DNA of 64,000 nucleotides from Escherichia phage HK3, in the sequence record PP526765, one strand, 5' to 3'. Below are positions 5,847 through 15,546 of this stretch, one piece after another. The notes under the pieces were generated by a model, which saw only the letters and a program-made list of their open reading frames with translations, was not told the origin of the DNA and did no database searches. Every line of letters starts with the position of its first letter. Position 1 is the first letter of the stretch. Both the position numbers and the translations under genes were made by a program.

Positions 5847-6073
5847 TTTTCAGTTCTCCTGCGATTTATGATTTTGCTGCAATAGAGAAACGAAGTAAAC
5901 TCACTGGAAGAAACCATTAAGTGTTGTTCACTAGATTGAGCCATTGCCCTGAAATACATTCCAGTCAAAGCATCGTAGTGACTATTCTTTCCAATTGAGG
6001 TTATATAGCCATGACTCTTTGCAGTTTTATATAAATCTATAATATCTGCGATTTCTAATTGGGAACTACACAT
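5840..6073 (-). CDS. hypothetical protein
   Basis: 77-aa ORF. Confidence 0.3.
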   Translation of the reverse strand: MCSSQLEIADIIDLYKTAKSHGYITSIGKNSHYDALTGMYFRAMAQSSEQHLMVSSSEFTSFLYCSKIINRRRTEKC

Positions 6074-6237
6074 AGATAATCCTCTTGTCTTCTGTAATTT
6101 TGAAAGAACAGGTACAGACCAATTTCAGAGGATGAATAGTAGAGCAACTCTACCCTTTTTGATTCCTTACAGTGATTGGTATTTTTACCTTTCTTCGGGT
6201 TGTTTGATTTTCTCATTAAGTCTCCTTTGTAGAACAA
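6055..6237 (-). CDS. hypothetical protein
   Basis: 60-aa ORF, basic. Confidence 0.25.
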   Translation of the reverse strand: MFYKGDLMRKSNNPKKGKNTNHCKESKRVELLYYSSSEIGLYLFFQNYRRQEDYLCVVPN

Positions 6238-6315
6238 GGCAGACCTACAGCTTTAAGTAAGATGGTACAGTAATCCATACAACAAGTCAAGAACTATTGC
6301 AAGTTAAAAAAGTTG

Positions 6316-6344
6316 TTGACAAAGTACTTGACAAGGTGTAGGCT
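6316..6344 (+). promoter_or_regulatory. candidate promoter with conserved spacer motif (TTGACA-17-TAGGCT)
   Basis: TTGACA 6316-6321; 17-nt spacer AAGTACTTGACAAGGTG contains 13-mer ACTTGACAAGGTG also found at 48275 and 63533. Confidence 0.45.
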
Positions 6345-6465
6345 TATAAATACTTAGAAGATAACTTAAAAGGTTCCTCTAAAAAGGCTATTTAAACAGA
6401 TATCTTTCTGGATATCTATCTTTTATCTTAAAAGCCTTTTAAGAGGTCTTATAAGAGGCATACCA

Positions 6466-6837
6466 ATGAAAAACAGAACAAACAAAGGCCAGTTTAAAAA
6501 AGGCCAGTCTGGAAACCCATCTGGAAGACCAAAAGGCTCTCGTAACAAAAGCTCACTTGTAAAAGCTCAACTGACCATTGATAATTCTGCTGAGTTCGCT
6601 GCAAAGCTGTTTGAGGCGATTGTTACAAGGGACGCGGCTAAGCTTGCAGAGTTCGGTTTGACGACTGACGATGTAAACCTGAAGTCAATGATGGAAGCTG
6701 GTAAAACTATCATGACCCACTCAGCAGGTGAGATGAAAGCCATTGCAGCAGACACTAAGAAGACTCCTGATAATGGTGGTCAACAACAGACAGATAACAA
6801 ACCAACGTTCTCTGCTGTAGCGACTCTCAAAAAATAA
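6466..6837 (+). CDS. hypothetical protein with GNPxGRPKG motif
   Basis: 123 aa; N-terminal GNPSGRPKGSRN motif I recall from a phage/plasmid family of unknown function. Confidence 0.5.
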   Translation: MKNRTNKGQFKKGQSGNPSGRPKGSRNKSSLVKAQLTIDNSAEFAAKLFEAIVTRDAAKLAEFGLTTDDVNLKSMMEAGKTIMTHSAGEMKAIAADTKKTPDNGGQQQTDNKPTFSAVATLKK

Positions 6838-6849
6838 TTTTAAAAGGTG

Positions 6850-6879
6850 TTGACAGACTCTACAAAGTTGCTCTAAAGT
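6850..6879 (+). promoter_or_regulatory. sigma70-like promoter (TTGACA-18-TAAAGT) inside inverted repeat
   Basis: TTGACA 6850-6855, TAAAGT 6874-6879; inverted repeat GACAGACT (6852-6859) / AGTCTGTC (6877-6884). Confidence 0.5.
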
Positions 6880-6916
6880 CTGTCACATCAAACAAAATGA
6901 GAGAAGAGAGTAAAAT

Positions 6917-8332
6917 ATGAGCAAGTTATTTAAACATGCGCACCTTCATGCAGGTCGAACTGAAAATGGTGCTGTAAACCATACTTCATCAATGTCTGCT
7001 CTGGTAGACTTCTACAAAGCCGCTGGTTCAAGCCGTAGCAATGTAGAAATCTTACCAGACCTGTTCTACAAAGCTTTGCGTGAGGATGTTGATGTTGCAG
7101 TTCGTATTTTACTGCATATGCGAGATGTACGAGAAGGTATGGGCGAGCGTAAAGCTTTCCGAACTGTTTTGCTTCAAGCGATTGAAGATAAGGTTTTAGA
7201 ACCTACACAGGTTCTTCGCATTATGGATAAGATTGCAGAACTTGGTCGTTTTGATGACTTCAAAATCTTTGTAGGTACTCGTTTTGAGACAGACGCCTTC
7301 AAACATTTAGAAGCAGCATTACTAGACCCTGCAACAGCAGGTTTAGCAGCTAAGTGGTTGCCACGAGTAAAACCACGCCACAAACAGTTTGTAAAACGTT
7401 TCTGCAAGTTTGCAAACTTAAGTGAGAAGGAGTATCGCACACTGTTGTCTGCACTATCTGATACGGTTGAGCAAAAAATCTCTGCTAATGAGTTTGGTAA
7501 GATTGACTACAGCAAGATTCCTTCACTAGCTGCTGCACGTTACCAAAAACTCTTTAACCGTAAAGATGGTGAACGTTACAAAGCTTACATCGAGTCGCTC
7601 TCAAAGGGTGAGGCTAAGATTAATGCTGGTGCTGTTTACCCATACGATGTGATTAAATCTATTAAGTATGGTAATGCAGATGTTGCTAATGAGCAGTGGA
7701 AAGCACTTCCAAACTGGATGGCAGAAGGTGAAAACATCTTGTGTATGACTGATGTTTCAAGCTCAATGTCTTGGGTGAATCTTGGTTCAATCACTGCCCT
7801 TGATATTGGTGTATCACTTGCTTTGTATGTAGCAGAACGCAATACTGGTTGCTTTAAAGATGAGTTAATGGTTTACTCAACAAACCCTCACTTCATTGAA
7901 CTGAGTGGTGATTTACGAAACCGTCATCGTCAGGTGATGCGTCACGTTGAATATGGCTCAACTAACTTACAAGCAGCTTTTGACCGTATTCTTGAAATAG
8001 GTAAGAGAAACAACTTGACTCAGAAAGATATGCCAAGTAAGCTTATTATCTTCTCTGATATGGAGTTTAATCAGGTTGATGGTGCAAATGGTCATACAAA
8101 CTTTGAAGCAATTCAGAGTAAGTACAAAAAAGCCGGATACGAAATGCCACAACTAGTATTCTGGTACTTAGCAAACCGTAATGGTACTTGCGAAGTATCT
8201 GTTAAGGATAATGGTGTAGCAATGGTATCAGGGTTCTCTCCAGCCACTTTAAAAGCTCTACTTGGTGGTGAGAAGTTTGACCCAATCAGCGTAATGCTCA
8301 AAGCAGTAATGATTGACCGTTATATCTGGTAA
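6917..8332 (+). CDS. vWA-domain protein with Ro60-like architecture (alpha-helical N-domain + C-terminal vWA)
   Basis: 471 aa; MIDAS-like DVSSSMS ... GSTN ... IIFSDME in C-terminal half; helical N-terminal about 270 aa; lies immediately upstream of tRNA array. Confidence 0.6.
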   Translation: MSKLFKHAHLHAGRTENGAVNHTSSMSALVDFYKAAGSSRSNVEILPDLFYKALREDVDVAVRILLHMRDVREGMGERKAFRTVLLQAIEDKVLEPTQVLRIMDKIAELGRFDDFKIFVGTRFETDAFKHLEAALLDPATAGLAAKWLPRVKPRHKQFVKRFCKFANLSEKEYRTLLSALSDTVEQKISANEFGKIDYSKIPSLAAARYQKLFNRKDGERYKAYIESLSKGEAKINAGAVYPYDVIKSIKYGNADVANEQWKALPNWMAEGENILCMTDVSSSMSWVNLGSITALDIGVSLALYVAERNTGCFKDELMVYSTNPHFIELSGDLRNRHRQVMRHVEYGSTNLQAAFDRILEIGKRNNLTQKDMPSKLIIFSDMEFNQVDGANGHTNFEAIQSKYKKAGYEMPQLVFWYLANRNGTCEVSVKDNGVAMVSGFSPATLKALLGGEKFDPISVMLKAVMIDRYIW

Positions 8333-8350
8333 AAAGTTTTAAAAAGGGTA

Positions 8351-8379
8351 TTGACAATGTGTTTGATACCCTTTAATAT
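8351..8379 (+). promoter_or_regulatory. sigma70-like promoter (TTGACA-17-TAATAT) for tRNA array
   Basis: consensus -35 and near-consensus -10 with 17-nt spacer; flanked by inverted repeat AAGGGTAT / ATACCCTT. Confidence 0.65.
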
Positions 8380-8442
8380 GTTCTACATAGAAACGAGATG
8401 AGAGCTTTTCTAAGATACTGAAAAATATTTTAAAAAAGTTCT

Positions 8443-8471
8443 TGACAACCACTAAAAAATAATGTTAAAGT
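8443..8471 (+). promoter_or_regulatory. sigma70-like promoter (TTGACA-17-TAAAGT)
   Basis: TTGACA 8443-8448, TAAAGT 8466-8471; overlapping hairpin CCACT...AGTGG. Confidence 0.5.
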
Positions 8472-8497
8472 GGTTACATAGAGTTTGAAAAGTTTAT

Positions 8498-8574
8498 CTC
8501 TGTTTAGCTCAGCTTGGTAGAGCGTTCCGTTTGGGGCGGTAAGGCCGGAGGTTCAAGTCCTCCAACAGAGACCA
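8498..8574 (+). tRNA. tRNA-Pro (anticodon UGG)
   Basis: manual fold: acceptor CTCTGTT/AACAGAG, D-loop AGCTTGGTA, anticodon loop TTTGGGG, T-arm GGAGG-TTCAAGT-CCTCC, encoded CCA. Confidence 0.75.
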
Positions 8575-8581
8575 AATTAAT

Positions 8582-8659
8582 GTTCCAGTAGACAAAATGG
8601 TATAGTCACCACTCTTTCAAAGTGGATATTTGAGGGTTCAAATCCCTTCTGGAACGCCA
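8582..8659 (+). tRNA. tRNA-Glu (anticodon UUC)
   Basis: manual fold: acceptor GTTCCAG/CTGGAAC, anticodon stem CCACT/AGTGG loop CTTTCAA, T-loop TTCAAAT, CCA. Confidence 0.7.
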
Positions 8660-8666
8660 GTTTTGA

Positions 8667-8740
8667 CAGAAGACCAATTACAGCAAACTTAATCTTATTC
8701 ATCTGAAGGTAAATCGGACAAAGAAGAGATTTGGTCTGGT
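8667..8740 (+). ncRNA. inter-tRNA structured element a (conserved terminal helix)
   Basis: 5' CAGAAGACCAATTACAGCAA ... 3' TTGGTCTGG; terminal 7-bp helix AGACCAA/TTGGTCT. Confidence 0.45.
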
Positions 8741-8750
8741 CATTAAGAAT

Positions 8751-8827
8751 TGCGGGTATAGAGAAAGGGCGTCTCACATGTCTCATTAGCATGGTATCGG
8801 CAGGTTCGACTCCTGCACCCGCCTCCA
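8751..8827 (+). tRNA. tRNA-Met (anticodon CAU; 1:72 mismatch)
   Basis: manual fold: anticodon stem CATGT/GCATG loop CTCATTA, T-arm GCAGG-TTCGACT-CCTGC, acceptor TGCGGGT/ACCCGCC with U1xC72 mismatch, CCA. Confidence 0.6.
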
Positions 8828-8833
8828 AATTTA

Positions 8834-8897
8834 CAGAAGACCGTTTACAGCAATATTTATTAAATTTTTAGCGGAAAAATTGAAAGATACGGTCTGG
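8834..8897 (+). ncRNA. inter-tRNA structured element b
   Basis: 5' CAGAAGACCGTTTACAGCAA ... 3' ACGGTCTGG; helix AGACCGT/ACGGTCT (compensatory to element a); internal hairpin AATTTTT-AGCGG-AAAAATT. Confidence 0.45.
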
Positions 8898-8910
8898 TAA
8901 TACTAAACAT

Positions 8911-8987
8911 GGTTAGGAAGCACATAAGGTATGTGCGGTCGCCTGTTAAGCGAATGGCACAGGGTTCGAATCCCTGACTAACCGCCA
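8911..8987 (+). tRNA. tRNA-Asn (anticodon GUU)
   Basis: manual fold: acceptor GGTTAGG/ACTAACC, anticodon loop CTGTTAA, T-arm CAGGG-TTCGAAT-CCCTG, CCA. Confidence 0.7.
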
Positions 8988-9058
8988 AATTTAGGAGAGA
9001 AGCGATTGCTCACCGATTTGTAAGGTGCAAGTCCTTAGCCTGAATAGAATAATAAAAT

Positions 9059-9145
9059 GTGTCGTTATCCCGTAGATGGTAGCGGTGGGGACTGTAAATC
9101 CCTTGTCATTGAGACTCGGTAGGTTCGACTCCTACACGGCACACC
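9059..9145 (+). tRNA. tRNA-Tyr (anticodon GUA), long variable arm
   Basis: manual fold: acceptor GTGTCGT/ACGGCAC, anticodon stem GGGGA/TCCCT loop CTGTAAA, 15-nt variable arm, T-arm GTAGG-TTCGACT-CCTAC, CCA. Confidence 0.7.
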
Positions 9146-9207
9146 AATTTTGAGAGGGCTATTTAGCCCCTCCCTTAAAGAGTTCTTACGAGTACCCTTT
9201 AAAGGAG

Positions 9208-9281
9208 CAGAAGACCAAATACAGCAAGTTACTTAAAATTTCAAGCCAATTCAATTTTGAAAAATTTAAAACTTGGTCTGG
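9208..9281 (+). ncRNA. inter-tRNA structured element c
   Basis: 5' CAGAAGACCAAATACAGCAA ... 3' TTGGTCTGG; same terminal helix. Confidence 0.45.
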
Positions 9282-9294
9282 CTCAACAAATTTA

Positions 9295-9425
9295 CAGAAG
9301 ACCGTTTACAGCAAAACTTAAACAATCTATTTCTCGGTAAAGAAAAGGTGAAGGTTCGATTCCTTCACTCGGCAGATGTCGAGTTGGTGTAATGGTAGCA
9401 CTTAAGATGATAAACAACGGTCTGG
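9295..9425 (+). ncRNA. candidate Y-RNA-like (YrlA-like) RNA: terminal helix enclosing circularly permuted tRNA-like domain
   Basis: 5' CAGAAGACCGTTTACAGCAA ... 3' ACGGTCTGG helix; inside: T-arm GTGAAGG-TTCGATT-CCTTCAC (9348-9368), closed acceptor-like hairpin ACTCGGC-AGAT-GTCGAGT (9367-9384), D-arm GTGT-AATGGTA-GCAC (9387-9401); no anticodon arm. Confidence 0.5.
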
Positions 9426-9576
9426 TAATTATCTTTGCAGTAGCTTATGTGGCTAATTATATCGTCCCATGAGTGCCGATGAATTTCCTTAGCATGATTC
9501 TAGATTAGCTTAATAGGAAATGACTCTACAGACCCTTTAGCAAGGTCTGCGTAGGTTACTGCAAAGATAATTTAAT

Positions 9577-9652
9577 AGAAGTGTAGCAGAATGGTGATGC
9601 GGCAGACTTTTAATCTGATAGGTGATGGGTTCGAATCCCTCCACTTCTACCA
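9577..9652 (+). tRNA. tRNA-Lys (anticodon UUU)
   Basis: manual fold: acceptor AGAAGTG/CACTTCT, anticodon stem GCAGA/TCTGA loop CTTTTAA, CCA; T-stem weak (3 bp); homologous to Lys-CUU gene with compensatory changes. Confidence 0.6.
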
Positions 9653-9656
9653 ATAT

Positions 9657-9733
9657 GGTTCAGTCGCAGATAAGGTAATGCAGGGGTCTCATAAGCCCTA
9701 TGAATGTGGGTTCGATTCCCATCTGAGCCTCCA
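9657..9733 (+). tRNA. tRNA with anticodon CAU (Met or Ile-lysidine type)
   Basis: manual fold: acceptor GGTTCAG/CTGAGCC, anticodon stem GGGGT/GCCCT loop CTCATAA, T-arm GTGGG-TTCGATT-CCCAT, CCA. Confidence 0.65.
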
Positions 9734-9735
9734 AT

Positions 9736-9811
9736 GCTGTGAAAGCACATATGGATGTGCATTCGGCTGATAACCGAAAGGAAGAAGGTTCGAATCCTTC
9801 TCACAGTACCA
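9736..9811 (+). tRNA. tRNA-Ile (anticodon GAU)
   Basis: manual fold: acceptor GCTGTGA/TCACAGT, D-arm GCAC-ATATGGAT-GTGC, anticodon stem TTCGG/CCGAA loop CTGATAA, T-arm GAAGG-TTCGAAT-CCTTC, CCA. Confidence 0.8.
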
Positions 9812-9826
9812 ATTTCAATAAAGTTG

Positions 9827-9855
9827 TTGACATTGAGATGTGACCACTTTATAGT
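9827..9855 (+). promoter_or_regulatory. sigma70-like promoter (TTGACA-17-TATAGT) internal to tRNA region
   Basis: TTGACA 9827-9832, TATAGT 9850-9855. Confidence 0.6.
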
Positions 9856-10058
9856 AACCTTAGTTTTCGTTGCGTAGCGTCTATTTTGCAAATTTAAAAT
9901 AAATGCAAACGACAATGTTTTTCTGGCAGTAGCTTGATAGGCTAAACACCAGTGAGGTCTTCCAATCCCTCATCAAAGAATTTGGCGTACTAGCCCACGG
10001 TATGATTAATAAGGTGGGCATCTTTAAGGGTTTTTTAAGAGAGTCTTTAAAGATTAAT

Positions 10059-10135
10059 GCACCCTTAGTTCAACTGGACAGAACAAATGACTTCTAATCA
10101 TTAGGTTACAGGTTCGAATCCTGTAGGGTGTGCCA
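10059..10135 (+). tRNA. tRNA-Arg (anticodon UCU)
   Basis: manual fold: acceptor GCACCCT/AGGGTGT, D-arm GTTC-AACTGGACA-GAAC, anticodon stem AATGA/TCATT loop CTTCTAA, T-arm ACAGG-TTCGAAT-CCTGT, CCA. Confidence 0.8.
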
Positions 10136-10277
10136 AATAGTTAGCAGATTGCTTAGACGACCTTATCGGGTCTCCGTGTAGGGAGGTGGTCTGTATCTCA
10201 TGTTTTCCAGAACATGTAAATAATCTGAGAAGGGGCTTTACAGTGTTGAGATAATACGGTAAGCTTCGAATTATAGT

Positions 10278-10360
10278 ATGGGACGATGTTAAGACTCTAA
10301 GGCATGAGCAACGGCTTCCAACACCGTTTCAAAGGGATTCAACTCCTCCGTCCCATGCCA
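10278..10360 (+). tRNA. atypical tRNA-like gene (possible tRNA-Trp, anticodon CCA) with extra nucleotides between acceptor and D-arm
   Basis: perfect 7-bp acceptor ATGGGAC/GTCCCAT + G + CCA; anticodon-like loop TTCCAAC; D-region 8 nt longer than canonical; weak T-stem. Confidence 0.3.
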
Positions 10361-10373
10361 AAGTCTTATTAGG

Positions 10374-10461
10374 GGTAGGTAGCGGCTAATGGTAGCCAAA
10401 CTGTCTTGAAAACAGTTGCCACTGTAGAGATACGGTGAGGGTTCGACTCCTTTACTTACCG
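10374..10461 (+). tRNA. tRNA-Ser (anticodon UGA), long variable arm
   Basis: manual fold: acceptor GGTAGGT/ACTTACC, anticodon stem ACTGT/ACAGT loop CTTGAAA, about 20-nt variable arm, T-arm GAGGG-TTCGACT-CCTTT. Confidence 0.7.
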
Positions 10462-10617
10462 CCTAATAAGATTTAAAGCCAAGCTTCATTCGGATGTTGC
10501 TTTGGTATCCCTCGTGTATTGTCGTACACACTGATAAAGCACCTAGTAGGTGTCACGGAGAAGAGATAATATCAAGCTCTCCAAAGGTTCTAGTCACCGG
10601 ATTAAACAAGACTATGC

Positions 10618-10639
10618 AAAGACCTGTTTAGGTCTTTTT
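10618..10639 (+). terminator. terminator-like hairpin within tRNA region
   Basis: AAAGACC-TGTTTA-GGTCTTT followed by TTT. Confidence 0.3.
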
Positions 10640-10718
10640 AGAGGGCTTCTAAGGTTATTACAGCTTGTTGTGGAACCTTGTTGCTTAGGTTCTTAGAAGT
10701 TCTCTAAAAAGATTTAAT

Positions 10719-10795
10719 GCACCTATAGCCCAACTGGTAGAGGCAGCAGACTTAGAATCTGCTCAGTGTGAGTTCGAATCTCTCTAGGTGTACCA
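10719..10795 (+). tRNA. tRNA with anticodon UAG (Leu by code) but short variable arm
   Basis: manual fold: acceptor GCACCTA/TAGGTGT, anticodon stem GCAGA/TCTGC loop CTTAGAA, 5-nt variable loop, T-loop TTCGAAT, A73, CCA. Confidence 0.55.
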
Positions 10796-10802
10796 AATTA
10801 AT

Positions 10803-10878
10803 GCAGGTGTAGCAAAATGGTTATGCGGCTGACTCTTAATCAGTAAGACGATGGTTTCAATTCCCTCCACCTGTACCA
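10803..10878 (+). tRNA. tRNA-Lys (anticodon CUU)
   Basis: manual fold: acceptor GCAGGTG/CACCTGT, anticodon stem GCTGA/TCAGT loop CTCTTAA, CCA; paralog of Lys-UUU with compensatory stem changes. Confidence 0.6.
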
Positions 10879-10884
10879 GACATT

Positions 10885-10960
10885 GGGGATGTAGTTTACA
10901 TGGTTAAAACATAAGTTTTGCAAACTTAAGTACAGGGTTCAATTCCCTGCTTCTCCACCA
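10885..10960 (+). tRNA. tRNA-Ala (anticodon UGC)
   Basis: manual fold: acceptor GGGGATG/CTTCTCC with G3-U70 wobble (Ala identity), D-arm GTTT-ACATGGTTA-AAAC, anticodon stem TAAGT/ACTTA loop TTTGCAA, T-arm CAGGG-TTCAATT-CCCTG, CCA. Confidence 0.7.
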
Positions 10961-10966
10961 ATTAGT

Positions 10967-11041
10967 GCATCCATAGTTTAAACGGGAAAATTACAGTCTT
11001 CCAAACTGAGGTTGAGGGTTCGATTCCCTCTGGATGCTCCA
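10967..11041 (+). tRNA. tRNA-Gly (anticodon UCC)
   Basis: manual fold: acceptor GCATCCA/TGGATGC, anticodon loop CTTCCAA, T-arm GAGGG-TTCGATT-CCCTC, CCA. Confidence 0.7.
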
Positions 11042-11047
11042 AATAAT

Positions 11048-11124
11048 GCTGCTTTCGTATAATTGGCTATTACACATCCCTTGTAAGGATGGAAATGCAG
11101 GTTCGAGTCCTGTGAGCAGCACCA
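11048..11124 (+). tRNA. tRNA-Thr (anticodon UGU)
   Basis: manual fold: acceptor GCTGCTT/GAGCAGC, anticodon stem CATCC/GGATG loop CTTGTAA, T-arm GCAGG-TTCGAGT-CCTGT, CCA. Confidence 0.75.
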
Positions 11125-11219
11125 ATTCAGAGGTCAAGTGAAAGACCGCTGGTGTCAACTGAAGACCGTAACAAATTCCACGGAGTTGAGTTAGCGGCAC
11201 AACTTCAGACCTCTTTCAT

Positions 11220-11294
11220 ACTCGCTTAGTTTATATGGTAAAACACCACCCTTACAAGATGAAGAAAAAGGTTCAAGTCCTTTAGTGAGTACCA
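11220..11294 (+). tRNA. tRNA-like gene, possible tRNA-Val (anticodon UAC); weak anticodon stem
   Basis: acceptor ACTCGCT/AGTGAGT, D-arm GTTT-ATATGGTA-AAAC, T-arm AAAGG-TTCAAGT-CCTTT, CCA; anticodon stem only 3/5 paired. Confidence 0.4.
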
Positions 11295-11295
11295 T

Positions 11296-11373
11296 GTTCC
11301 AATATCCCAATTGGCAGAGGATGCAAGCTCAAACCTTGTACTAGTGACGGTTCGAATCCGTCTTGGAACACCA
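11296..11373 (+). tRNA. tRNA with anticodon CAA (Leu by code) but short variable arm
   Basis: manual fold: acceptor GTTCCAA/TTGGAAC, Leu-like D-loop AATTGGCAGAG, anticodon stem GCAAG/CTTGT loop CTCAAAC, 6-nt variable loop, T-arm GACGG-TTCGAAT-CCGTC, A73, CCA. Confidence 0.55.
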
Positions 11374-11487
11374 ATTTTGGGAGAGCACTATGAGTGATAA
11401 GTCAATAGCAAAAAAGTTTAGAGCGTCATACCTAAACAGACGTAAAAACAAAGATTGTGAAAAACTGTATGGTGTTCTTGTAGGTAA

Positions 11488-11563
11488 GCAGGATTAGTTC
11501 AAATGGATAGAGCAGCAGTCTACGAAGCTGTTAATAGGGGTTCGAATCCCTTATCCTGCGCCA
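11488..11563 (+). tRNA. tRNA-Arg (anticodon ACG)
   Basis: manual fold: acceptor GCAGGAT/ATCCTGC, D-arm GTTC-AAATGGATA-GAGC, anticodon stem GCAGT/GCTGT loop CTACGAA, T-arm AGGGG-TTCGAAT-CCCTT, CCA. Confidence 0.75.
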
Positions 11564-11582
11564 ATTTTAAGAGGCTATTTAG

Positions 11583-12140
11583 ATGAGATATTTGAAGTAT
11601 GCTTCATGGATTTTCCTAGCTTTGTTAGACCCATTGGCAGCAACCTTAGCAGTTATCTTAGCACCTTTTGTAGTTCCATTCTACAGTGAGAAGAAAGGGC
11701 ACTTACCTTTCGGCTTCAGATGGATGGAGACATATGACAACCCAATTGATGGTGATAAAGGTCATGTTGAACGATGGGCTAAGATTAGAAAGATTGGTAA
11801 GCTTGGTGTCTATATGCAGAGAGTCGGTTGGCTCTGGAGAAACAAAGCTTATAACTTCTCTTACCATGTGTTAGGAAGAGATGTAAAAGATGTTACTAAG
11901 TGGAAAGGTAATATCAACGTAAGCTCTGACCCTGAAGATAATCAGACAGGTTATCTCCTAATGTGGAACAGTAATGCTTGGGGATTATTCGCTTTTATCC
12001 CATCAATTAAAGTCTTTGGTAAACAATTCTACTGGAGAATTTATATTGGGTGGAAACTAAAAAGTGTTGTCCCAGAAGAAAGAGCATTCTCAAGGGAAAG
12101 AGTTATGTTGGCATTCTTTATTCATCCACTGAGAAAGTAA
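11583..12140 (+). CDS. hypothetical membrane-anchored protein embedded in tRNA array
   Basis: 185 aa, ATG with AAGAGG upstream; N-terminal hydrophobic segment ASWIFLALLDPLAATLAVILAPFVVPF. Confidence 0.5.
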   Translation: MRYLKYASWIFLALLDPLAATLAVILAPFVVPFYSEKKGHLPFGFRWMETYDNPIDGDKGHVERWAKIRKIGKLGVYMQRVGWLWRNKAYNFSYHVLGRDVKDVTKWKGNINVSSDPEDNQTGYLLMWNSNAWGLFAFIPSIKVFGKQFYWRIYIGWKLKSVVPEERAFSRERVMLAFFIHPLRK

Positions 12141-12148
12141 AGATTTAA

Positions 12149-12224
12149 AGGGGATTAGTTTACAAGGTTAAAACCTCGGTCTTTGAAATCGAAGAAGTTG
12201 GTTCAATTCCAACATCCCCCGCCA
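12149..12224 (+). tRNA. tRNA-Gln (anticodon UUG)
   Basis: manual fold: acceptor AGGGGAT/ATCCCCC (A1xC72), D-arm GTTT-ACAAGGTTA-AAAC, anticodon stem TCGGT/ATCGA loop CTTTGAA, T-arm GTTGG-TTCAATT-CCAAC, CCA. Confidence 0.65.
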
Positions 12225-12226
12225 AT

Positions 12227-12305
12227 GCTCCATTACTCCAATTGGCAGAGAGGCCAGACTTAAAATCTGTGTTATGTATCGGTTCGAATCCGATATGGAG
12301 TACCA
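12227..12305 (+). tRNA. tRNA with anticodon UAA (Leu by code) but short variable arm
   Basis: manual fold: acceptor GCTCCAT/ATGGAGT, Leu-like D-loop AATTGGCAGAG, anticodon loop CTTAAAA, 7-nt variable loop, T-arm ATCGG-TTCGAAT-CCGAT, A73, CCA. Confidence 0.55.
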
Positions 12306-12310
12306 AATTT

Positions 12311-12386
12311 AGCGGTATAGCATAACTGGCAATGCAACAGTCTCTGAAGCTGTCTTATTAAGGTTCAAATCCTTATGCCGCTGCCA
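12311..12386 (+). tRNA. tRNA-Gln (anticodon CUG)
   Basis: manual fold: acceptor AGCGGTA/TGCCGCT, D-arm GCAT-AACTGGCA-ATGC, anticodon stem ACAGT/GCTGT loop CTCTGAA, T-arm TAAGG-TTCAAAT-CCTTA, CCA. Confidence 0.7.
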
Positions 12387-12417
12387 CTTCTAAGGATTCT
12401 TACGAGAGTCCTTAAAT

Positions 12418-12493
12418 GTGGCCTTATCATAAACGGTAATGACCCATGCTGTGAACATGGTCTATACGGGTTCAAATCCCGTAGGTCACCCCA
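12418..12493 (+). tRNA. tRNA-His (anticodon GUG)
   Basis: manual fold: acceptor GTGGCCT/AGGTCAC, D-arm TCAT-AAACGGTA-ATGA, anticodon stem CCATG/CATGG loop CTGTGAA, T-arm ACGGG-TTCAAAT-CCCGT, C73, CCA. Confidence 0.75.
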
Positions 12494-12498
12494 ATTTA

Positions 12499-12575
12499 TA
12501 GTCCAAGTAGCTTATATGGTTAAAGCGCGTGTCTGAAAAACATGAGAAGAGGGTTCAAATCCCACTGGATTACCA
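12499..12575 (+). tRNA. tRNA-Phe (anticodon GAA); acceptor/D junction atypical
   Basis: D-arm GCTT-ATATGGTTA-AAGC, anticodon stem CGTGT/ACATG loop CTGAAAA, T-loop TTCAAAT; acceptor TAGTCCA/TGGATTA leaves 4 nt before D-stem. Confidence 0.5.
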
Positions 12576-12591
12576 ATTTCAAAGGTGCTTA

Positions 12592-13326
12592 ATGAAAGAG
12601 ATGACAGAACAAGGTAAGGAGATTTTTAATCTCTTAAAAACTGGTAAAGGGTTTTCTAACCCCCTTATTACTGGTGCAGCAGTTCTCGGTGGAACCGTAG
12701 CTGCCTCTACATCACTTGTAAGCTCTATTAGCTCTGTAACAGACCCTACAATAAAGGATAAACTTATTGCTGCTGGACTTACAACAGTTCTGCTTAACAG
12801 CTTTACAACGAGTCTGACAAGCACTACAGCAACTACTAAGACCCTAACAGACTATGGTCAAAAATCTATTGATGAGTTTTCATCACGTATGCAGGTAGCA
12901 AAGGGATACTCCAATGTTATGGGTGCAGTAGGAGAACAAGTTGGTTGTACACCATTTAGTGGTATTATGGGTGTTGCTACAGAGTATGGTCAAAAAGCTA
13001 TGGATACAATTAACAGCACACTAGATGGCGTTAATGATGTATTAAGCGACTTACAGGATGCTATTGATAAAGGTCTTAATACTATTTCTGATTTAGCTAA
13101 CCAAGCTGTTAGTAAGATTAATGAAGGTATCTCAAAGATTACAGCTTATGCAGATGAAGTTGTGCAGATGATTGAAGAAGAAGCTGCCCTTATTGCAGAG
13201 TACCTTAAAACGAATATCAATGGGTTCTTAGCAGGTATCTTACCAGACTGGTTTGATGATGCTTGTAAAACTGGTGTGATTGACACTATTGCAACACCAG
13301 AAATGAAGAACGCATTACAGAAATAA
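12592..13326 (+). CDS. hypothetical Ser/Thr-rich protein
   Basis: ATG at 12592 with AAAGGTG upstream (track ORF from 12529 would overlap tRNA-Phe); 244 aa. Confidence 0.5.
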   Translation: MKEMTEQGKEIFNLLKTGKGFSNPLITGAAVLGGTVAASTSLVSSISSVTDPTIKDKLIAAGLTTVLLNSFTTSLTSTTATTKTLTDYGQKSIDEFSSRMQVAKGYSNVMGAVGEQVGCTPFSGIMGVATEYGQKAMDTINSTLDGVNDVLSDLQDAIDKGLNTISDLANQAVSKINEGISKITAYADEVVQMIEEEAALIAEYLKTNINGFLAGILPDWFDDACKTGVIDTIATPEMKNALQK

Positions 13327-13327
13327 C

Positions 13328-13420
13328 GGAAGATTAACCCTAAAAGGTAAGGGAGCAGTTTGCTAAACTGCCAGTAGCTGAGAAATCGGTGTACCAGTTC
13401 AAGTCTGGTATCTTCCTCCA
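13328..13420 (+). tRNA. tRNA-Ser (anticodon GCU), long variable arm
   Basis: manual fold: acceptor GGAAGAT/ATCTTCC, anticodon stem GCAGT/ACTGC loop TTGCTAA, long variable arm, T-arm ACCAG-TTCAAGT-CTGGT, CCA. Confidence 0.7.
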
Positions 13421-13424
13421 ATTT

Positions 13425-13500
13425 GAATCCGTGACAGAAATGGCTATGTACCTGTCTGCAAAACAGGTTTATAAGGGTTCGAGTCCCTTCGGATTCTCCA
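13425..13500 (+). tRNA. tRNA-Cys (anticodon GCA)
   Basis: manual fold: acceptor GAATCCG/CGGATTC, anticodon stem CCTGT/ACAGG loop CTGCAAA, T-arm AAGGG-TTCGAGT-CCCTT, U73 (Cys identity), CCA. Confidence 0.75.
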
Positions 13501-13537
13501 AGTTATTTTACTCTCTCTCAATTAAAATAATAATAAT

Positions 13538-13597
13538 GCCCTGCTATAAGTATTCTTCCTTTCGCTACCGAAGAGTATTTTTAGACAGGGCTTTTTT
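13538..13597 (+). terminator. rho-independent terminator after tRNA array
   Basis: long imperfect hairpin GCCCTG...CAGGGC followed by TTTTTT (13592-13597). Confidence 0.6.
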
Positions 13598-13662
13598 ACA
13601 GAGTTATACTTTATAAGAAGACTTATACAGTATGTCTCTGACGTACATTGTGGTTTCTCCTT

Positions 13663-13686
13663 GACGGTCTCTGTACCGTCTTTTTT
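13663..13686 (+). terminator. rho-independent terminator
   Basis: GACGGT-CTCTGT-ACCGTC followed by TTTTTT. Confidence 0.6.
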
Positions 13687-13722
13687 AAGGAGAAACATGG
13701 TTAATTATTTGGAGAAAACATA

Positions 13723-13923
13723 ATGAGCGAGACCGTTTATAAAGAACTTTATGAAGCCAATAAAAAGCTGGAATTTATGCAGACTACTATTATGGCAATT
13801 GCAGACAGATTGTCTGTAGCAACAGGTATTGATATCAAAGAAGCCTCTATGGATGCACTTCTTGATGCTGTTGATGCAAAGTTCGAAGTTAAGAAAGAAG
13901 AGACTGCTACAGACTCTGAATAA
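13723..13923 (+). CDS. hypothetical small protein preceding large terminase
   Basis: 66 aa, ATG with GGAG RBS; position compatible with small terminase but too short to assert. Confidence 0.4.
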   Translation: MSETVYKELYEANKKLEFMQTTIMAIADRLSVATGIDIKEASMDALLDAVDAKFEVKKEETATDSE

Positions 13924-13944
13924 TTCTATTTGCGGAGGTGCTTA

Positions 13945-15546
13945 ATGGACTTAAATGCTGTTAAGCAGAAGCGAGTGGAAGATGTTAGGAAAGTCCTAGC
14001 TGGAGAGTTGGGGCTTTCTGATGAAGTAAAAGAAATTATCAAATCATTCGGTAAAGACCCCTCTAAATTCCTTCCAACTCAAATTCTGACTTTATTAAGA
14101 TACACACCAGACCAAGTTAGACTTATCTTCAAATTGATGACTGATAAGAACTATGTAGCCCCTCAGCCGGGTTCTCAAGAGGTGTTTTTAAATACTAATG
14201 CTGACTTGGTTTTATATGGTGGTGCTGCTGGTGCTGGTAAAACTGCTGCATTGTTAATGGACTCTTTAAGGTTTATTGAAGACCCTAACTATAATGCTGT
14301 ATATTTCCGTCGAAATACAACACAGTTACAAGGTGGTTTATGGCCTGCTGCAAAGAAACTATTTGGTAAGTTTGGTGGGGTTCCTCACGAGCAGAAGATG
14401 ACTATCACATTCCCTTCTGGGGCAACTATCAAGTTCACCTACCTAGAACTTGAAAAGCACGCTGAAGGTCATCAGGGTATTGAATACTCAGCTATTTACT
14501 TTGACGAAGGTACACACTTCTCTGCTTCACAGATTTCATACCTACAGACTCGTCTGCGTTCTGGTGCTGAAGGTGACTCATACATGAAGATTTCCATGAA
14601 CCCAGATAGAGACCACTTCATTTATGATTGGGTAGAACCCTTCTTAGATGAAGAAGGTTACCCAGACCCTGAGAAGTGCGGTCGTATTCGTTGGTATGTT
14701 ATGAATGATGGTGTGATGGTTTCTGATTGGGAAAGAGACAAGATTCTTGAAATGTTCCCTCTTGAGATTCCTCAGACATACACCTTCATCTCTGGTACGA
14801 TTGATGATAACCCAATTCTTGACTTCTTAGAACCTAAATATCGTGGTAAGTTGGAAAACAACACACCTGTAAACGTTGCAAGACTTCGTTTCGGTAACTG
14901 GAAGGCTCGTGCAGAAGGTTCAAACTATTGGCAAAGACAATGGTGTGAGATTGTTGATTCACTCCCAGAAGATGTGTTTGATGTCAGAGCATGGGACTTA
15001 GCAGCGACTTTACCATCTGAAATTAACCCTAACCCAGACTGGACAGCGGGTGTTAAGATGGGTAAATCTAAAAAAGACGGTTGCTATTATATCATTGATG
15101 TAGTAAGATTTAGAGATAGACCCTCTGGAGTCGAAACACAAATTAATTTGACTGCTGAAAGTGACGGTAAGCGAACTGGTATTTTTATCCCTCAAGACCC
15201 AGGCGCTGCTGGTAAATCCTATGCAACATCCCTCATCAGGAAACTTGCCGAGAAAGGTTATCGCGCAAGAGCTAAACCAACAAATAAAGATAAAGTTACC
15301 CGCTTTGCGGGATTTTCTGCTGCTTCGGAAGCTGGACTTGTAAAAGTCTTGAGAGGCAGTTGGAACGAAGCTTACTTTCAAGAACTTGAAGGCTTTTGTG
15401 GTGATGGTAAAACGAAAGATGACCAAGTGGATGCTACCAGTGATGCTTTCAACAGTCTTAACGAAGTTAAATTATTCAAGCCACCATCAATGGGTGCTCA
15501 CACAGATTTAGTGAGAGGAAACCCATATGAGGGGCTTAGACGTTGA
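13945..15546 (+). CDS. terL: terminase large subunit
   Basis: Walker A LYGGAAGAGKT, Walker B-like IYFDEGTHF; C-terminal nuclease-sized domain; ATG 13945 with GGAGG 6 nt upstream (track start 13930 is TTG). Confidence 0.85.
   Translation: MDLNAVKQKRVEDVRKVLAGELGLSDEVKEIIKSFGKDPSKFLPTQILTLLRYTPDQVRLIFKLMTDKNYVAPQPGSQEVFLNTNADLVLYGGAAGAGKTAALLMDSLRFIEDPNYNAVYFRRNTTQLQGGLWPAAKKLFGKFGGVPHEQKMTITFPSGATIKFTYLELEKHAEGHQGIEYSAIYFDEGTHFSASQISYLQTRLRSGAEGDSYMKISMNPDRDHFIYDWVEPFLDEEGYPDPEKCGRIRWYVMNDGVMVSDWERDKILEMFPLEIPQTYTFISGTIDDNPILDFLEPKYRGKLENNTPVNVARLRFGNWKARAEGSNYWQRQWCEIVDSLPEDVFDVRAWDLAATLPSEINPNPDWTAGVKMGKSKKDGCYYIIDVVRFRDRPSGVETQINLTAESDGKRTGIFIPQDPGAAGKSYATSLIRKLAEKGYRARAKPTNKDKVTRFAGFSAASEAGLVKVLRGSWNEAYFQELEGFCGDGKTKDDQVDATSDAFNSLNEVKLFKPPSMGAHTDLVRGNPYEGLRR

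What the first reader, a model, noticed from the sequence alone, without database searches (positions are those of the whole stretch)
6917..8332. Ro60-like vWA protein encoded immediately upstream of the tRNA / Y-RNA-like array
The 471-aa product has a helical N-terminal domain and a C-terminal vWA domain with an apparent MIDAS motif (DVSSSMS, T, D), the same domain order as Ro60/Rsr. It is transcribed toward an array of tRNAs and tRNA-like elements. Together they may form a phage-encoded ribonucleoprotein for RNA quality control or for countering host tRNA-targeting defences.
Basis: inference. Interest (0 to 1): 0.7.

Follow-up and report, generated by a model that had tools for sequence, protein, structure and literature searches.

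The report
Phage Ro60-like protein with Y-like RNAs
This Felix O1-type phage gene encodes a divergent relative of the RNA-binding ring protein Ro60, as a preprint had already suggested for a near-identical gene, and its likely RNA partners are four small non-tRNA elements wedged among the first tRNAs, members of an apparently undescribed RNA family found beside this gene in many phages.

Summary
The ORF (6917-8332, + strand, 471 aa) is real. The window is a Felixounavirus.

Protein:
- Pfam places it in DUF2828 + DUF7788, not TROVE.
- The MIDAS residues are invariant across 40 homologs.
- It is 461/471 identical to Bas63 gp130. A 2024 preprint called gp130 Ro60-like, noted its position upstream of the tRNAs, and showed genetically that it counters the Ppl defence.
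- The protein-level claim is therefore correct but not new.

RNA (the new part):
- The 25 tRNAs are ordinary. Four non-tRNA elements (8664-8745, 8831-8902, 9205-9284, 9292-9430) share a 7-bp helix followed by UACAGCAA.
- The fourth also has a circularly permuted tRNA-like domain, as in bacterial YrlA.
- The same module lies beside homologs in phages of Proteobacteria, Firmicutes, Actinobacteria and Cyanobacteria. The helix covaries.
- All 26 covariance-model hits are on the gene strand.
- The elements track the gene, not tRNA arrays.
- The family is absent from Rfam. Its box differs from the CGAA motif of known Y RNAs.

Binding and function are inferred, not shown.

The parts
6850..6879 (+). 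Promoter-like site for the Ro-like gene (TTGACA-18-TAAAGT)
   Evidence: A promoter is annotated at the equivalent place in phage AYO145A. This is a consensus match only.
6917..8332 (+). Ro60-like ring protein, 471 aa: TROVE-like helical domain plus vWA/MIDAS. Pfam DUF2828+DUF7788, PHROG 850. Ortholog of Bas63 gp130.
8351..8379 (+). Promoter-like site (TTGACA-17-TAATAT) between the gene and the tRNA/Y-like array
8442..8471 (+). Promoter-like site (TTGACA-18-TAAAGT, with TG) just before tRNA-Pro
8664..8745 (+). E1: short Y-like element. Helix UGAC/GUCA plus AGACCAA/UUGGUCU, box UUACAGCAA. It fills the tRNA-Glu/tRNA-Met spacer.
8831..8902 (+). E2: short Y-like element. Helix AGACCGU/ACGGUCU, box UUACAGCAA. 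It fills the tRNA-Met/tRNA-Asn spacer.
   Evidence: R1 hit of 32.4 bits, E 2e-4.
9205..9284 (+). E3: short Y-like element. Helix GAGC/GCUC plus AGACCAA/UUGGUCU, box AUACAGCAA.
   Evidence: R1 hit of 27.5 bits.
9292..9430 (+). E4: long YrlA-like element. Basal helix plus box, then a V hairpin, a T arm (GAAGG-UUCGAUU-CCUUC), a closed 7-bp acceptor (ACUCGGC-AGAU-GUCGAGU) and a D arm (GUGU-AAUGGUA-GCAC).
   Evidence: Unconstrained MFE fold of -35.3 kcal/mol, z -2.4. Automatic detection. The acceptor hairpin shows compensatory change in SUSP2/Sf14.
8498..13500 (+). Context: array of 25 canonical tRNA genes in which E1-E4 are embedded

Best explanation
The gene encodes a divergent Ro60-type ring protein: a TROVE-like helical horseshoe closed by a vWA domain with a complete metal-binding MIDAS site. 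It belongs to the large phage family DUF2828/DUF7788 and is the ortholog of Bas63 gp130.

RNA partners (inferred): four small RNAs, E1-E4, are encoded immediately downstream on the same strand. They are probably transcribed with the first tRNAs. E1 and E2 would be released by ordinary tRNA 5' and 3' processing, because they exactly fill inter-tRNA spacers. E3 and E4 lie in the longer tRNA-Tyr/tRNA-Lys spacer and would need further cleavage. Each carries one conserved module: a 7-bp helix with an invariant G-C second pair, followed on its 5' strand by the single-stranded box (U)ACAGCAA. I propose this module is the protein's binding site. It would be the counterpart of the CGAA-bearing stem of classical Y RNAs. 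E4 adds a circularly permuted tRNA-like head (T arm, closed acceptor, D arm, no anticodon loop), as in bacterial YrlA. E1-E3 resemble YrlB.

Function (further inference): the RNP recruits or gates host RNA enzymes such as PNPase, or phage RNA repair enzymes, to keep RNA working during infection and to blunt host immunity.

Shown here: the fold; the family membership; the RNA module, its covariation, and its tight linkage in position and strand to the gene across phages of several bacterial phyla.

Shown by others: loss of the Bas63 ortholog sensitises the phage to the Ppl defence, and the protein alone rescues T7.

Inferred: RNA binding, RNA processing, and the mechanism.
For: Protein:
- The top 12 Foldseek matches are all full-length Ro60 chains, TM up to 0.68.
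- The profile HMM aligns the query MIDAS strand to Ro60 'DVSASM', although only at E 0.5.
- The MIDAS residues and many Arg/Lys of the helical domain are invariant.
- 461/471 identity and the same synteny as Bas63 gp130.
- gp130 counters Ppl.

RNA:
- Four exact box copies in 650 nt.
- All four elements fold with the same basal architecture, and E4 folds into the YrlA-like four-way junction without constraints.
- The same module lies next to homologs in Klebsiella, Aeromonas, Vibrio, Cronobacter, Campylobacter, Sinorhizobium, Mycobacterium, Bacillus, Enterococcus, Listeria, Staphylococcus and Synechococcus phages.
- In 29 elements, 6 of the 7 helix pairs change on both sides, three positions use all four Watson-Crick pairs, and G6-C34 never varies. 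The covariation score is 0.775, against 0.199 when shuffled and 0.18 or less when slid.
- In 65 independent metagenomic loci the strict detector finds 40 elements on the gene strand, 2 on the opposite strand, and a mean of 8 in shuffles.
- With the relaxed box, 47 of 89 elements lie within 500 nt of the gene ends.
- The covariance model R1 gives 23 of 23 hits and 26 of 26 hits on the gene strand. It gives none in T5-like or T6 tRNA regions.
- The complete permuted tRNA-like design is detected automatically in 11 loci from four host groups.
- Elements sit next to the gene in 36 loci that have no tRNA within 1 kb.

Context: RNA ligase, RtcB, phosphoesterase, PNK and CCA-enzyme genes occur near homologs.
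Against: - No binding, expression or processing data exist for E1-E4.
- gp130 alone, from a plasmid or moved into T7, which has no such RNAs, restores plaquing on Ppl. The one measured activity therefore needs no phage RNA.
- The elements lack the GNCGAAN0-1G/CGAA motif that defines all known Ro60 ligands. They hit no Rfam Y-RNA model even at E<=10.
- By sequence the protein does not match Pfam TROVE.
- Fold energies of the short elements are only modestly better than shuffles (z -1.1 to -1.8).
- The elements used for the pair counts were selected for having at least 7 bp, so the pairing percentage is partly circular.
- About 14-24 of the 65 diverse loci show no element with my detectors.
- Many elements lie in the 5' or 3' UTR of the gene, which also fits cis-regulation.
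Confidence: 0.7

Rival explanations
1. The protein works alone as a direct protein-protein inhibitor of host immunity, for example by binding Ppl through its vWA/MIDAS face. The neighbouring elements are then not functional ligands for that role. At most they are regulators or hitch-hikers.
For: gp130 expressed alone rescues Bas63 delta-130 and T7 on Ppl hosts. vWA-MIDAS domains classically mediate protein-protein contacts; the next-best structural neighbours are the midasin MIDAS/UBL complexes. All five MIDAS residues are invariant.
Against: This does not explain why a covarying RNA module with an invariant box stays within a few hundred nt of the gene, on the same strand, across phages of several phyla. 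It also does not explain why the whole Ro-like helical ring with invariant basic residues is conserved. The protein could still use host RNAs such as tRNAs in the T7 experiment.
Confidence: 0.2
2. E1-E4 are cis-acting RNA signals rather than stable trans-acting Y-like RNAs. They could be processing punctuation for the tRNA precursor, or autoregulatory operator sites through which the protein controls its own mRNA.
For: In many loci a single short element lies 10-55 nt upstream of the start codon or just after the stop. In Vibrio phage loci the predicted helix overlaps the start codon. In the window, E1 and E2 exactly fill inter-tRNA spacers.
Against: Several copies per locus (3-7), a dedicated tRNA-like head in one copy per locus, and tRNA-shaped RNAs carrying the module are unnecessary for an operator or a cleavage signal. 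tRNA arrays of T5-like and T6 phages have no such elements. Autoregulation would in any case still mean the protein binds the module.
Confidence: 0.12
3. Some of the annotated tRNAs themselves are the Y RNAs, as the PhageMaP preprint proposed. On this view the protein binds phage tRNAs.
For: The gene is adjacent to tRNA blocks in many cultured phages. Some phages encode tRNA-shaped RNAs that carry the box module in the anticodon region.
Against: All 25 window tRNAs are canonical by ARAGORN. Rfam recognises 23 at the gathering score and a 24th only below threshold. None of the window tRNAs carries the box. In 65 diverse loci only 11 have a tRNA within 2 kb of the gene, while 41 have a box element within 500 nt.
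Confidence: 0.05

Closest known systems
Bacterial Ro60 (Rsr) with YrlA/YrlB Y RNAs: Salmonella rsr-yrlBA-rtcBA, M. smegmatis, D. radiodurans Yrn1 (Chen et al. 2014, PMC4201824)
   Same: - A ring protein made of a helical repeat domain plus a vWA/MIDAS domain.
- Small RNAs encoded within a few kb on the same strand.
- The 5' and 3' ends of the RNA form the stem presumed to bind the protein.
- One RNA per locus has a tRNA-like head in the order T arm, closed acceptor, D arm. The others are shorter.
- The 7-bp closed acceptor of E4 resembles M. smegmatis YrlA.
- RNA repair genes are often nearby.
   Different: - Only 10-15% identity. No Pfam TROVE match; the family is DUF2828/DUF7788.
- The conserved RNA signature is helix + (U)ACAGCAA, not GNCGAAN0-1G.
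- Nothing in the library of 4227 Rfam families, searched at E<=10 across the array, matches the elements.
- The elements are embedded in a tRNA operon in this phage.
- A third RNA architecture exists: normal-ended tRNA shapes that carry the module.
Bas63 gp130 (PhageMaP preprint, doi 10.1101/2024.10.10.617714)
   Different: The preprint guessed that some annotated tRNAs are the Y RNAs. It did not identify the non-tRNA elements, their box, or their distribution.
TROVE-type phage Ro60: Thermus phage phiLo phiRo60 with Yrl1/Yrl2 (PMC12135203), and mycobacteriophage cluster C Ro with YrlA
   Different: Those proteins are recognisable TROVE proteins, and their RNAs carry the CGAA motif. The present family is a separate sequence family with a different box.
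T4 'species 1 and 2' stable RNAs (rnaC, rnaD) in the T4 tRNA cluster (from my own knowledge, not tested here)
   Same: Small stable non-tRNA RNAs that are co-transcribed and co-processed with phage tRNAs.
   Different: T-even phages lack this protein. The T6 tRNA region gives no hit to the model.

Membership tests
Ro60 / Rsr (TROVE + vWA ring proteins) | Helical-repeat (TROVE) domain followed by a vWA domain, together forming the Ro ring fold | tested here: met
Ro60 / Rsr (TROVE + vWA ring proteins) | Significant sequence match to Pfam TROVE or to Ro60 chains | tested here: not met
   No TROVE hit at E<=1. phmmer against the PDB finds nothing. The profile against the PDB hits Ro60 only at E 0.5, and only over the vWA strand.
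Ro60 / Rsr (TROVE + vWA ring proteins) | MIDAS motif (DxSxS...T...D) in the vWA domain | tested here: met
   D279, S281, S283, T349 and D381 are invariant in 40 homologs. The motif aligns to Ro60 DVSASM.
Ro60 / Rsr (TROVE + vWA ring proteins) | Physically binds Y RNA or misfolded RNA | not testable with these tools
   Only comparative linkage is available.
YrlA/YrlB-type bacterial Y RNAs | Encoded within ~4 kb of the Ro gene on the same strand | tested here: met
   E1-E4 lie 332-1098 nt downstream on the + strand. All 26 model hits in ~1 Mb are on the gene strand.
YrlA/YrlB-type bacterial Y RNAs | The 5' and 3' ends pair into a basal stem, and one RNA has a tRNA-like head in the order T arm, closed acceptor, D arm | tested here: met
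   E4 MFE fold. The same design is found in 11 loci.
YrlA/YrlB-type bacterial Y RNAs | GNCGAAN0-1G / CGAA motif in the 5' strand | tested here: not met
   The elements carry (U)ACAGCAA instead.
YrlA/YrlB-type bacterial Y RNAs | Match to a curated Y-RNA covariance model | tested here: not met
   No Y-RNA family among the Rfam 15 hits at E<=10 in 6000-14000, and none at the gathering score in 8 other loci.
Pfam DUF2828 + DUF7788 / PHROG 850 | Scores above the curated cut-offs over the full length | tested here: met
   PF11443 102.6 bits (cut-off 29) and PF25043 148.6 bits (cut-off 27.1). phrog_850 E 8e-184 over residues 1-471.
Anti-Ppl counter-defence proteins (Bas63 gp130) | Orthology to the experimentally tested gene | tested here: met
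   461/471 identical with identical synteny.
Anti-Ppl counter-defence proteins (Bas63 gp130) | Relieves Ppl restriction | not testable with these tools
   Reported for Bas63 gp130 only.

The most novel reading that the evidence does not exclude
DUF2828/DUF7788 proteins and the helix+ACAGCAA RNAs form a second, phage-wide lineage of Ro-Y RNA ribonucleoproteins with its own recognition code. The RNAs come in three architectures: short stand-alone RNAs, permuted tRNA-like RNAs, and normal-ended tRNA shapes that carry the module in place of or beside the anticodon arm. This suggests the ring protein is coupled to tRNA-like scaffolds in order to engage tRNA-handling enzymes or tRNA-directed immunity. 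The lineage includes a genetically validated anti-defence factor.
Probability: 0.5. Interest if true: 0.8.

Novelty: new variant of a known kind. Interest (0 to 1): 0.62.

Why it matters
Ro60-Y RNA particles are a long-studied RNA surveillance system, but their roles in bacteria and phages are poorly understood.

- This gene family is in at least 709 sequenced phages and thousands of metagenomic contigs, and one member defeats a bacterial defence system (Ppl) whose mechanism is unknown.
- Concrete candidate RNA ligands, with a simple conserved box and a covarying helix, turn a vague idea ('maybe some tRNAs are Y RNAs') into direct experiments: binding assays, box mutants, and deletion of E1-E4.
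- The elements would also explain hundreds of unannotated or mis-annotated spacers in phage tRNA regions, currently labelled 'tRNA-OTHER', 'tRNA-Pseudo', over-long tRNAs, or spurious small ORFs.
- They point to an evolutionary link between tRNAs and Y-like RNAs.

Tried and rejected
- Sequence route to Ro60: phmmer against the PDB and NCBIfam gave nothing. The profile against the PDB gave Ro60 only at E 0.5. The fold claim therefore rests on structure prediction.
- Rfam: no Y-RNA, YrlA or other family fits E1-E4 at E<=10 or at the gathering score in 8 loci.
- MAFFT alignments of full elements (A2, A3) misplaced the 3' strands. A first core alignment (A4) was out of register. All three were replaced by a register-true core alignment padded with N in the spacer (A5).
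- Filters-off cmsearch of the whole window caps hit length and missed E2 and E3, so it is not a valid specificity test. It shows only that nothing else in the window exceeds about 17 bits.
The second returned mostly chance matches. Helix-positive loci with the gene were 6 Ounavirinae plus one distant homolog (Fisher P 1e-5, but not independent), so this is weak support only.
- The supplementary tables of Chen et al. 2014 are not held. I could not check whether any of their 22 phages belongs to this family.
- The Sim et al. 2020 review is not held. Nothing mechanistic was found on Ppl.
- I considered and dropped two ideas. The repeats are not mobile elements or homing-endonuclease sites, because they covary and are conserved across phyla. 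The window tRNAs are not disguised Y RNAs, because all are canonical.
- I did not build a second covariance model with trained loop inserts, and I did not test a TROVE-type phage locus for absence of the box.
Full report
OBSERVATION

The ORF at 6917-8332 (+ strand, ATG start, 471 aa) exists exactly as described. ARAGORN finds 25 tRNA genes on the same strand from 8498 to 13500. Rfam confirms 23 of them at the gathering score.

The window is a Felix O1-like myovirus. The region 6400-8500 is 97.9% identical to phage IME338, and 252 phage records (Escherichia, Salmonella, Shigella, Citrobacter; Felixounavirus) carry it.

A promoter-like site with a perfect TTGACA lies 38 nt upstream of the ATG. 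Two more lie between the stop codon and tRNA-Pro, with no terminator-like site between them. 'Transcribed toward the tRNA array' is therefore right, although the array probably also has promoters of its own.

THE PROTEIN

By sequence, the protein is not a TROVE protein.
- Pfam gives DUF2828 (E 2.9e-29) and DUF7788 (E 2.1e-43). VWA_2 is below threshold, and there is no TROVE hit at E<=1.
- PHROGs gives phrog_850, 'RNA-binding protein', end to end (E 8e-184).
- NCBIfam and a plain sequence search of the PDB give nothing.

The family is large. At least 2836 clusters score E<=1e-3 among the 8000 candidates examined, and 709 phage records carry it by tblastn.

In a 40-sequence alignment reaching down to 40% identity, D279, S281, S283, T349 and D381 (the complete MIDAS) are invariant. 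So are many basic residues of the helical half: R40, R69, R72, R78, R111 and K146. A profile of that alignment hits Ro60 chains as the only vWA proteins in the PDB. It aligns the query MIDAS strand with Ro60 'DVSASM', but only at E 0.5.

Structure settles the matter.
- The AlphaFold2 model is confident: pLDDT 88.6, pTM 0.88.
- The top 12 Foldseek matches are all full-length Ro60/Rsr structures from Xenopus, human, Deinococcus and Thermus phage phiLo. E-values are about 1e-7 to 2e-6 and TM reaches 0.68 over roughly 520-555 columns. After these, only vWA-domain matches follow, at E>=2e-3.

PRIOR KNOWLEDGE

- RefSeq calls the gene 'RNA-binding protein', one submitter calls it 'vWFA protein', and SEA-PHAGES annotators call the mycobacteriophage members 'Ro-like RNA binding protein'.
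- The PhageMaP preprint reports that Bas63 gp130 is structurally similar to Ro60 and lies directly upstream of the tRNA genes. [quoted passage not shown] It shows that deleting gene 130 gives tiny plaques on a host carrying the Ppl defence (ATPase + PHP domain), and that complementation rescues this. gp130 alone, from a plasmid or inserted into T7, also restores T7 plaquing on Ppl.
- Bas63 is MZ501086. Its gene 130 is 461/471 identical to the window ORF and has the same neighbours.

The one measured activity does not need phage-encoded RNA.

THE RNAs

Reading the spacers, I found a recurring motif. AGAAGACCNNNTACAGCAA occurs four times at 8668, 8835, 9209 and 9296. All copies are exact and on the + strand. 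About 0.8 matches are expected by chance even with three mismatches allowed. Each copy is followed 50-120 nt later by GGUCUGG.

Folded without constraints, all four elements adopt the same base:
- an outer 4-bp helix that differs between copies but stays complementary (UGAC/GUCA, UUAC/GUAA, GAGC/GCUC);
- a 3-nt bulge;
- then AGACCNN/NNGGUCU.

The fourth element (9292-9430) folds at -35.3 kcal/mol (z -2.4) into this base plus a four-way junction. The junction has a V hairpin, a canonical T arm (GAAGG-UUCGAUU-CCUUC), a 7-bp acceptor-like stem closed by a tetraloop (ACUCGGC-AGAU-GUCGAGU), and a D arm (GUGU-AAUGGUA-GCAC). This is the circularly permuted tRNA-like layout that defines bacterial YrlA. 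E1-E3 are the shorter, YrlB-like kind.

E1 and E2 exactly fill the tRNA-Glu/Met and tRNA-Met/Asn spacers. Normal tRNA end-processing would therefore release them; this step is inferred.

CONSERVATION

- The four elements are present in Felixounavirus, Suspvirus and Mooglevirus. The acceptor hairpin of E4 is replaced there by a different self-complementary sequence.
- 236 phage records cover at least 80% of 8640-9460.
- In a Klebsiella Stephanstirmvirinae phage (protein 52% identical), the gap between the gene and its tRNAs holds elements with the same box. The helices differ but remain complementary: GAAGAU/AUCUUC, AGAAGAA/UUCUUCU, AGAAGCU/AGCUUCU. One of these elements has a permuted tRNA-like head.
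- The module also lies beside the homolog in phages of Vibrio, Aeromonas, Cronobacter, Campylobacter, Sinorhizobium, Mycobacterium, Bacillus, Enterococcus, Listeria, Staphylococcus and Synechococcus.

The consensus is as follows:
- a 5' strand [A/U]-A-G-R-NNNN;
- a 1-3 nt spacer;
- the box CAGCAA, usually as UACAGCAA, with UCAGCAA and CUGCAA as variants;
- an apical hairpin that often carries GC(A/U)UAGAAA;
- an A-rich 3' side of the loop;
- a 3' strand NNNN-Y-C-U.

In a register-true alignment of 29 cores (A5), the 7-bp helix is 97% paired. Six of the seven pairs change on both sides, and three positions use all four Watson-Crick pairs. G6-C34 is invariant. The covariation score is 0.775, against 0.199 for shuffles and at most 0.18 for slid registers. 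The caveat is that I selected elements with at least 7 bp, so pairing in itself is partly by construction. The diversity of the pairs and the fixed register relative to the box are not.

INDEPENDENT TESTS

A scan of IMG/VR for relatives of the protein gave 80 loci, 65 of them diverse (39-46% identity).
- A strict detector (ACAGCAA plus at least 7 contiguous bp) finds 40 elements in 32 loci on the gene strand. It finds 2 on the opposite strand and a mean of 8 in local shuffles.
- With the box relaxed to CAGCAA, the counts are 89 on the gene strand, 35 on the opposite strand and 21 +/- 4 in shuffles. Of the 89, 47 lie within 500 nt of the gene ends, which is about 8% of the sequence searched. 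46 of the 65 loci have an element within 1.5 kb.
- A covariance model built only from cultured-phage cores (R1) finds 23 hits at E<=1 in the window plus the 65 unseen loci. All 23 are on the gene strand, mostly within 300 nt of the gene, and several are in loci my regex had missed.
- Over about 1 Mb, all 26 hits at E<=0.3 are on the gene strand.
- T5-like (18 kb, about 25 tRNAs) and T6 tRNA regions, from phages that lack the gene, give no hit.
- The full permuted tRNA-like design is detected automatically in 11 loci from gamma- and alpha-proteobacterial, actinobacterial and firmicute phages.
- A third architecture also exists: normal-ended tRNA-shaped RNAs whose anticodon region carries a hairpin followed by the box. 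These occur in Klebsiella, Aeromonas (one with an encoded CCA) and Synechococcus phages.

The element follows the gene, not tRNA arrays. Among the 65 loci, only 11 have a tRNA within 2 kb of the gene, yet 41 have an element within 500 nt. In 36 of those 41 there is no tRNA within 1 kb.

IS THE RNA FAMILY KNOWN?

- Rfam 15 has no match, either at E<=10 in the window or at the gathering score in 8 other loci.
- All described Ro60 ligands in bacteria and phages are defined by GNCGAAN0-1G/CGAA. The 2014 survey searched only genomes annotated with a TROVE protein.
- Full-text searches for DUF2828, YrlA with phage, Ro60 with phage, 'Ro-like', and Felixounavirus with noncoding RNA found no description of these RNAs.
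- I could not read the 2014 supplementary tables.

MECHANISM

Shown:
- the Ro60 fold with an intact MIDAS;
- orthology to a validated Ppl counter;
- a conserved, covarying RNA module that is tightly and directionally linked to the gene.

Inferred:
- the module is the protein's binding site;
- the RNAs are processed out of the tRNA precursor;
- the particle engages host or phage RNA enzymes.

The third point rests on analogy with Rsr-Y RNA-PNPase and with phiLo. It also rests on the RtcB, RNA ligase, phosphoesterase, PNK and CCA-enzyme genes seen near homologs.

Because gp130 alone defeats Ppl, there are three possibilities. The protein may act on Ppl directly through its vWA face. It may use host RNAs. 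Or the RNAs may serve another function of the particle, such as gating, stabilisation or targeting. I cannot distinguish these computationally.

VERDICT

The added value is the identification of the likely RNA partners: an apparently undescribed ACAGCAA-box family of Y-like RNAs that accompanies this Ro-like protein family across phages. I class it as a new variant of a known kind (Ro60-Y RNA particles).

Noticed in passing
window 9433-9571: A 139-nt spacer element closed by a 12-bp helix (AUCUUUGCAGUA ... UACUGCAAAGAU). It begins with GCAGTAGCTTATGTGGCTAA, which resembles a tRNA acceptor plus D-arm 5' half. A similar sequence recurs at 9926-9945, and at the start of tRNA-Phe at 12504-12523 (repeat family D11). 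It may be a degenerate or unusual tRNA-like RNA. Other records annotate small minus-strand ORFs here.
   Followed up: partly
window 9147-9204: This phage lacks the tRNA-Asp that Bas63, Sf14, SUSP2 and AYO145A carry right after tRNA-Tyr. In its place is a GC-rich hairpin (GAGAGGGCUAUUUAGCCCCUCCC) and a 25-nt repeat (AAGAGTTCTTACGAGTACCCTTTAA) that recurs at 12392-12416 (D13).
   Followed up: no
window 11125-11219: The tRNA-Thr/tRNA-Val spacer is closed by a 7-bp helix AGAGGUC/GACCUCU. It contains GAAGACCGUAACAA, which resembles the 5' part of E1-E4 but lacks the CAGCAA box. It may be a decayed family member.
   Followed up: no
window 9812-10058, 10136-10373, 10464-10718: Three further spacers of about 240-255 nt inside the tRNA array have no tRNA and no convincing ORF. 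Only weak sub-threshold tmRNA/tmRNA_permuted and miRNA-type Rfam hits fall here. Their content is unexplained.
   Followed up: no
window 8498-13503 (tRNA 3' ends): Most tRNAs have an encoded CCA followed by a conserved A(A/T)TT trailer (repeat families D1-D3). This may be a shared 3'-processing signal.
   Followed up: no
window 11583-12140 and 12529-13326: Two protein genes sit inside the tRNA array: DUF7338 (E 3e-62) and DUF7217 (E 1e-88). The GTG-started ORF at 12529 overlaps tRNA-Phe (12500-12575), and its Pfam match begins at residue 29, so the true start is probably later.
   Followed up: partly
window 6466-6837: The upstream gene (DUF5681, phrog_4114) keeps its position directly before the Ro-like gene throughout the Ounavirinae. 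It is basic at the N-terminus and its function is unknown.
   Followed up: no
L004 9003-9116; L006 5494-5613 and 202-320; L015 9848-9960: Over-long 'tRNAs' (111-120 nt) in Klebsiella, Aeromonas and Synechococcus phages are tRNA-shaped RNAs whose anticodon region carries a hairpin plus the (U)ACAGCAA or CUGCAA box. Databases list them as tRNA-Asp, tRNA or tRNA-Undet.
   Followed up: partly
L013 3941-4039; L012 4071-4421: Listeria phage LMSP-25 has a 'drum' RNA (50.2 bits against a cut-off of 43) inside its tRNA block. Enterococcus phage EFDG1 encodes a full tmRNA (140.6 bits) that is not annotated in the record.
   Followed up: no
L006, L013, L007, L009 (neighbourhoods of homologs): RNA repair and tRNA-related genes recur near the Ro-like gene: RNA ligase 2 (Aeromonas); RtcB-type 'tRNA splicing ligase', RNA ligase and phosphoesterase (Listeria); CCA-adding enzyme and phosphoesterase (Cronobacter); an Appr-1-p processing macro domain (Sinorhizobium).
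   Followed up: no
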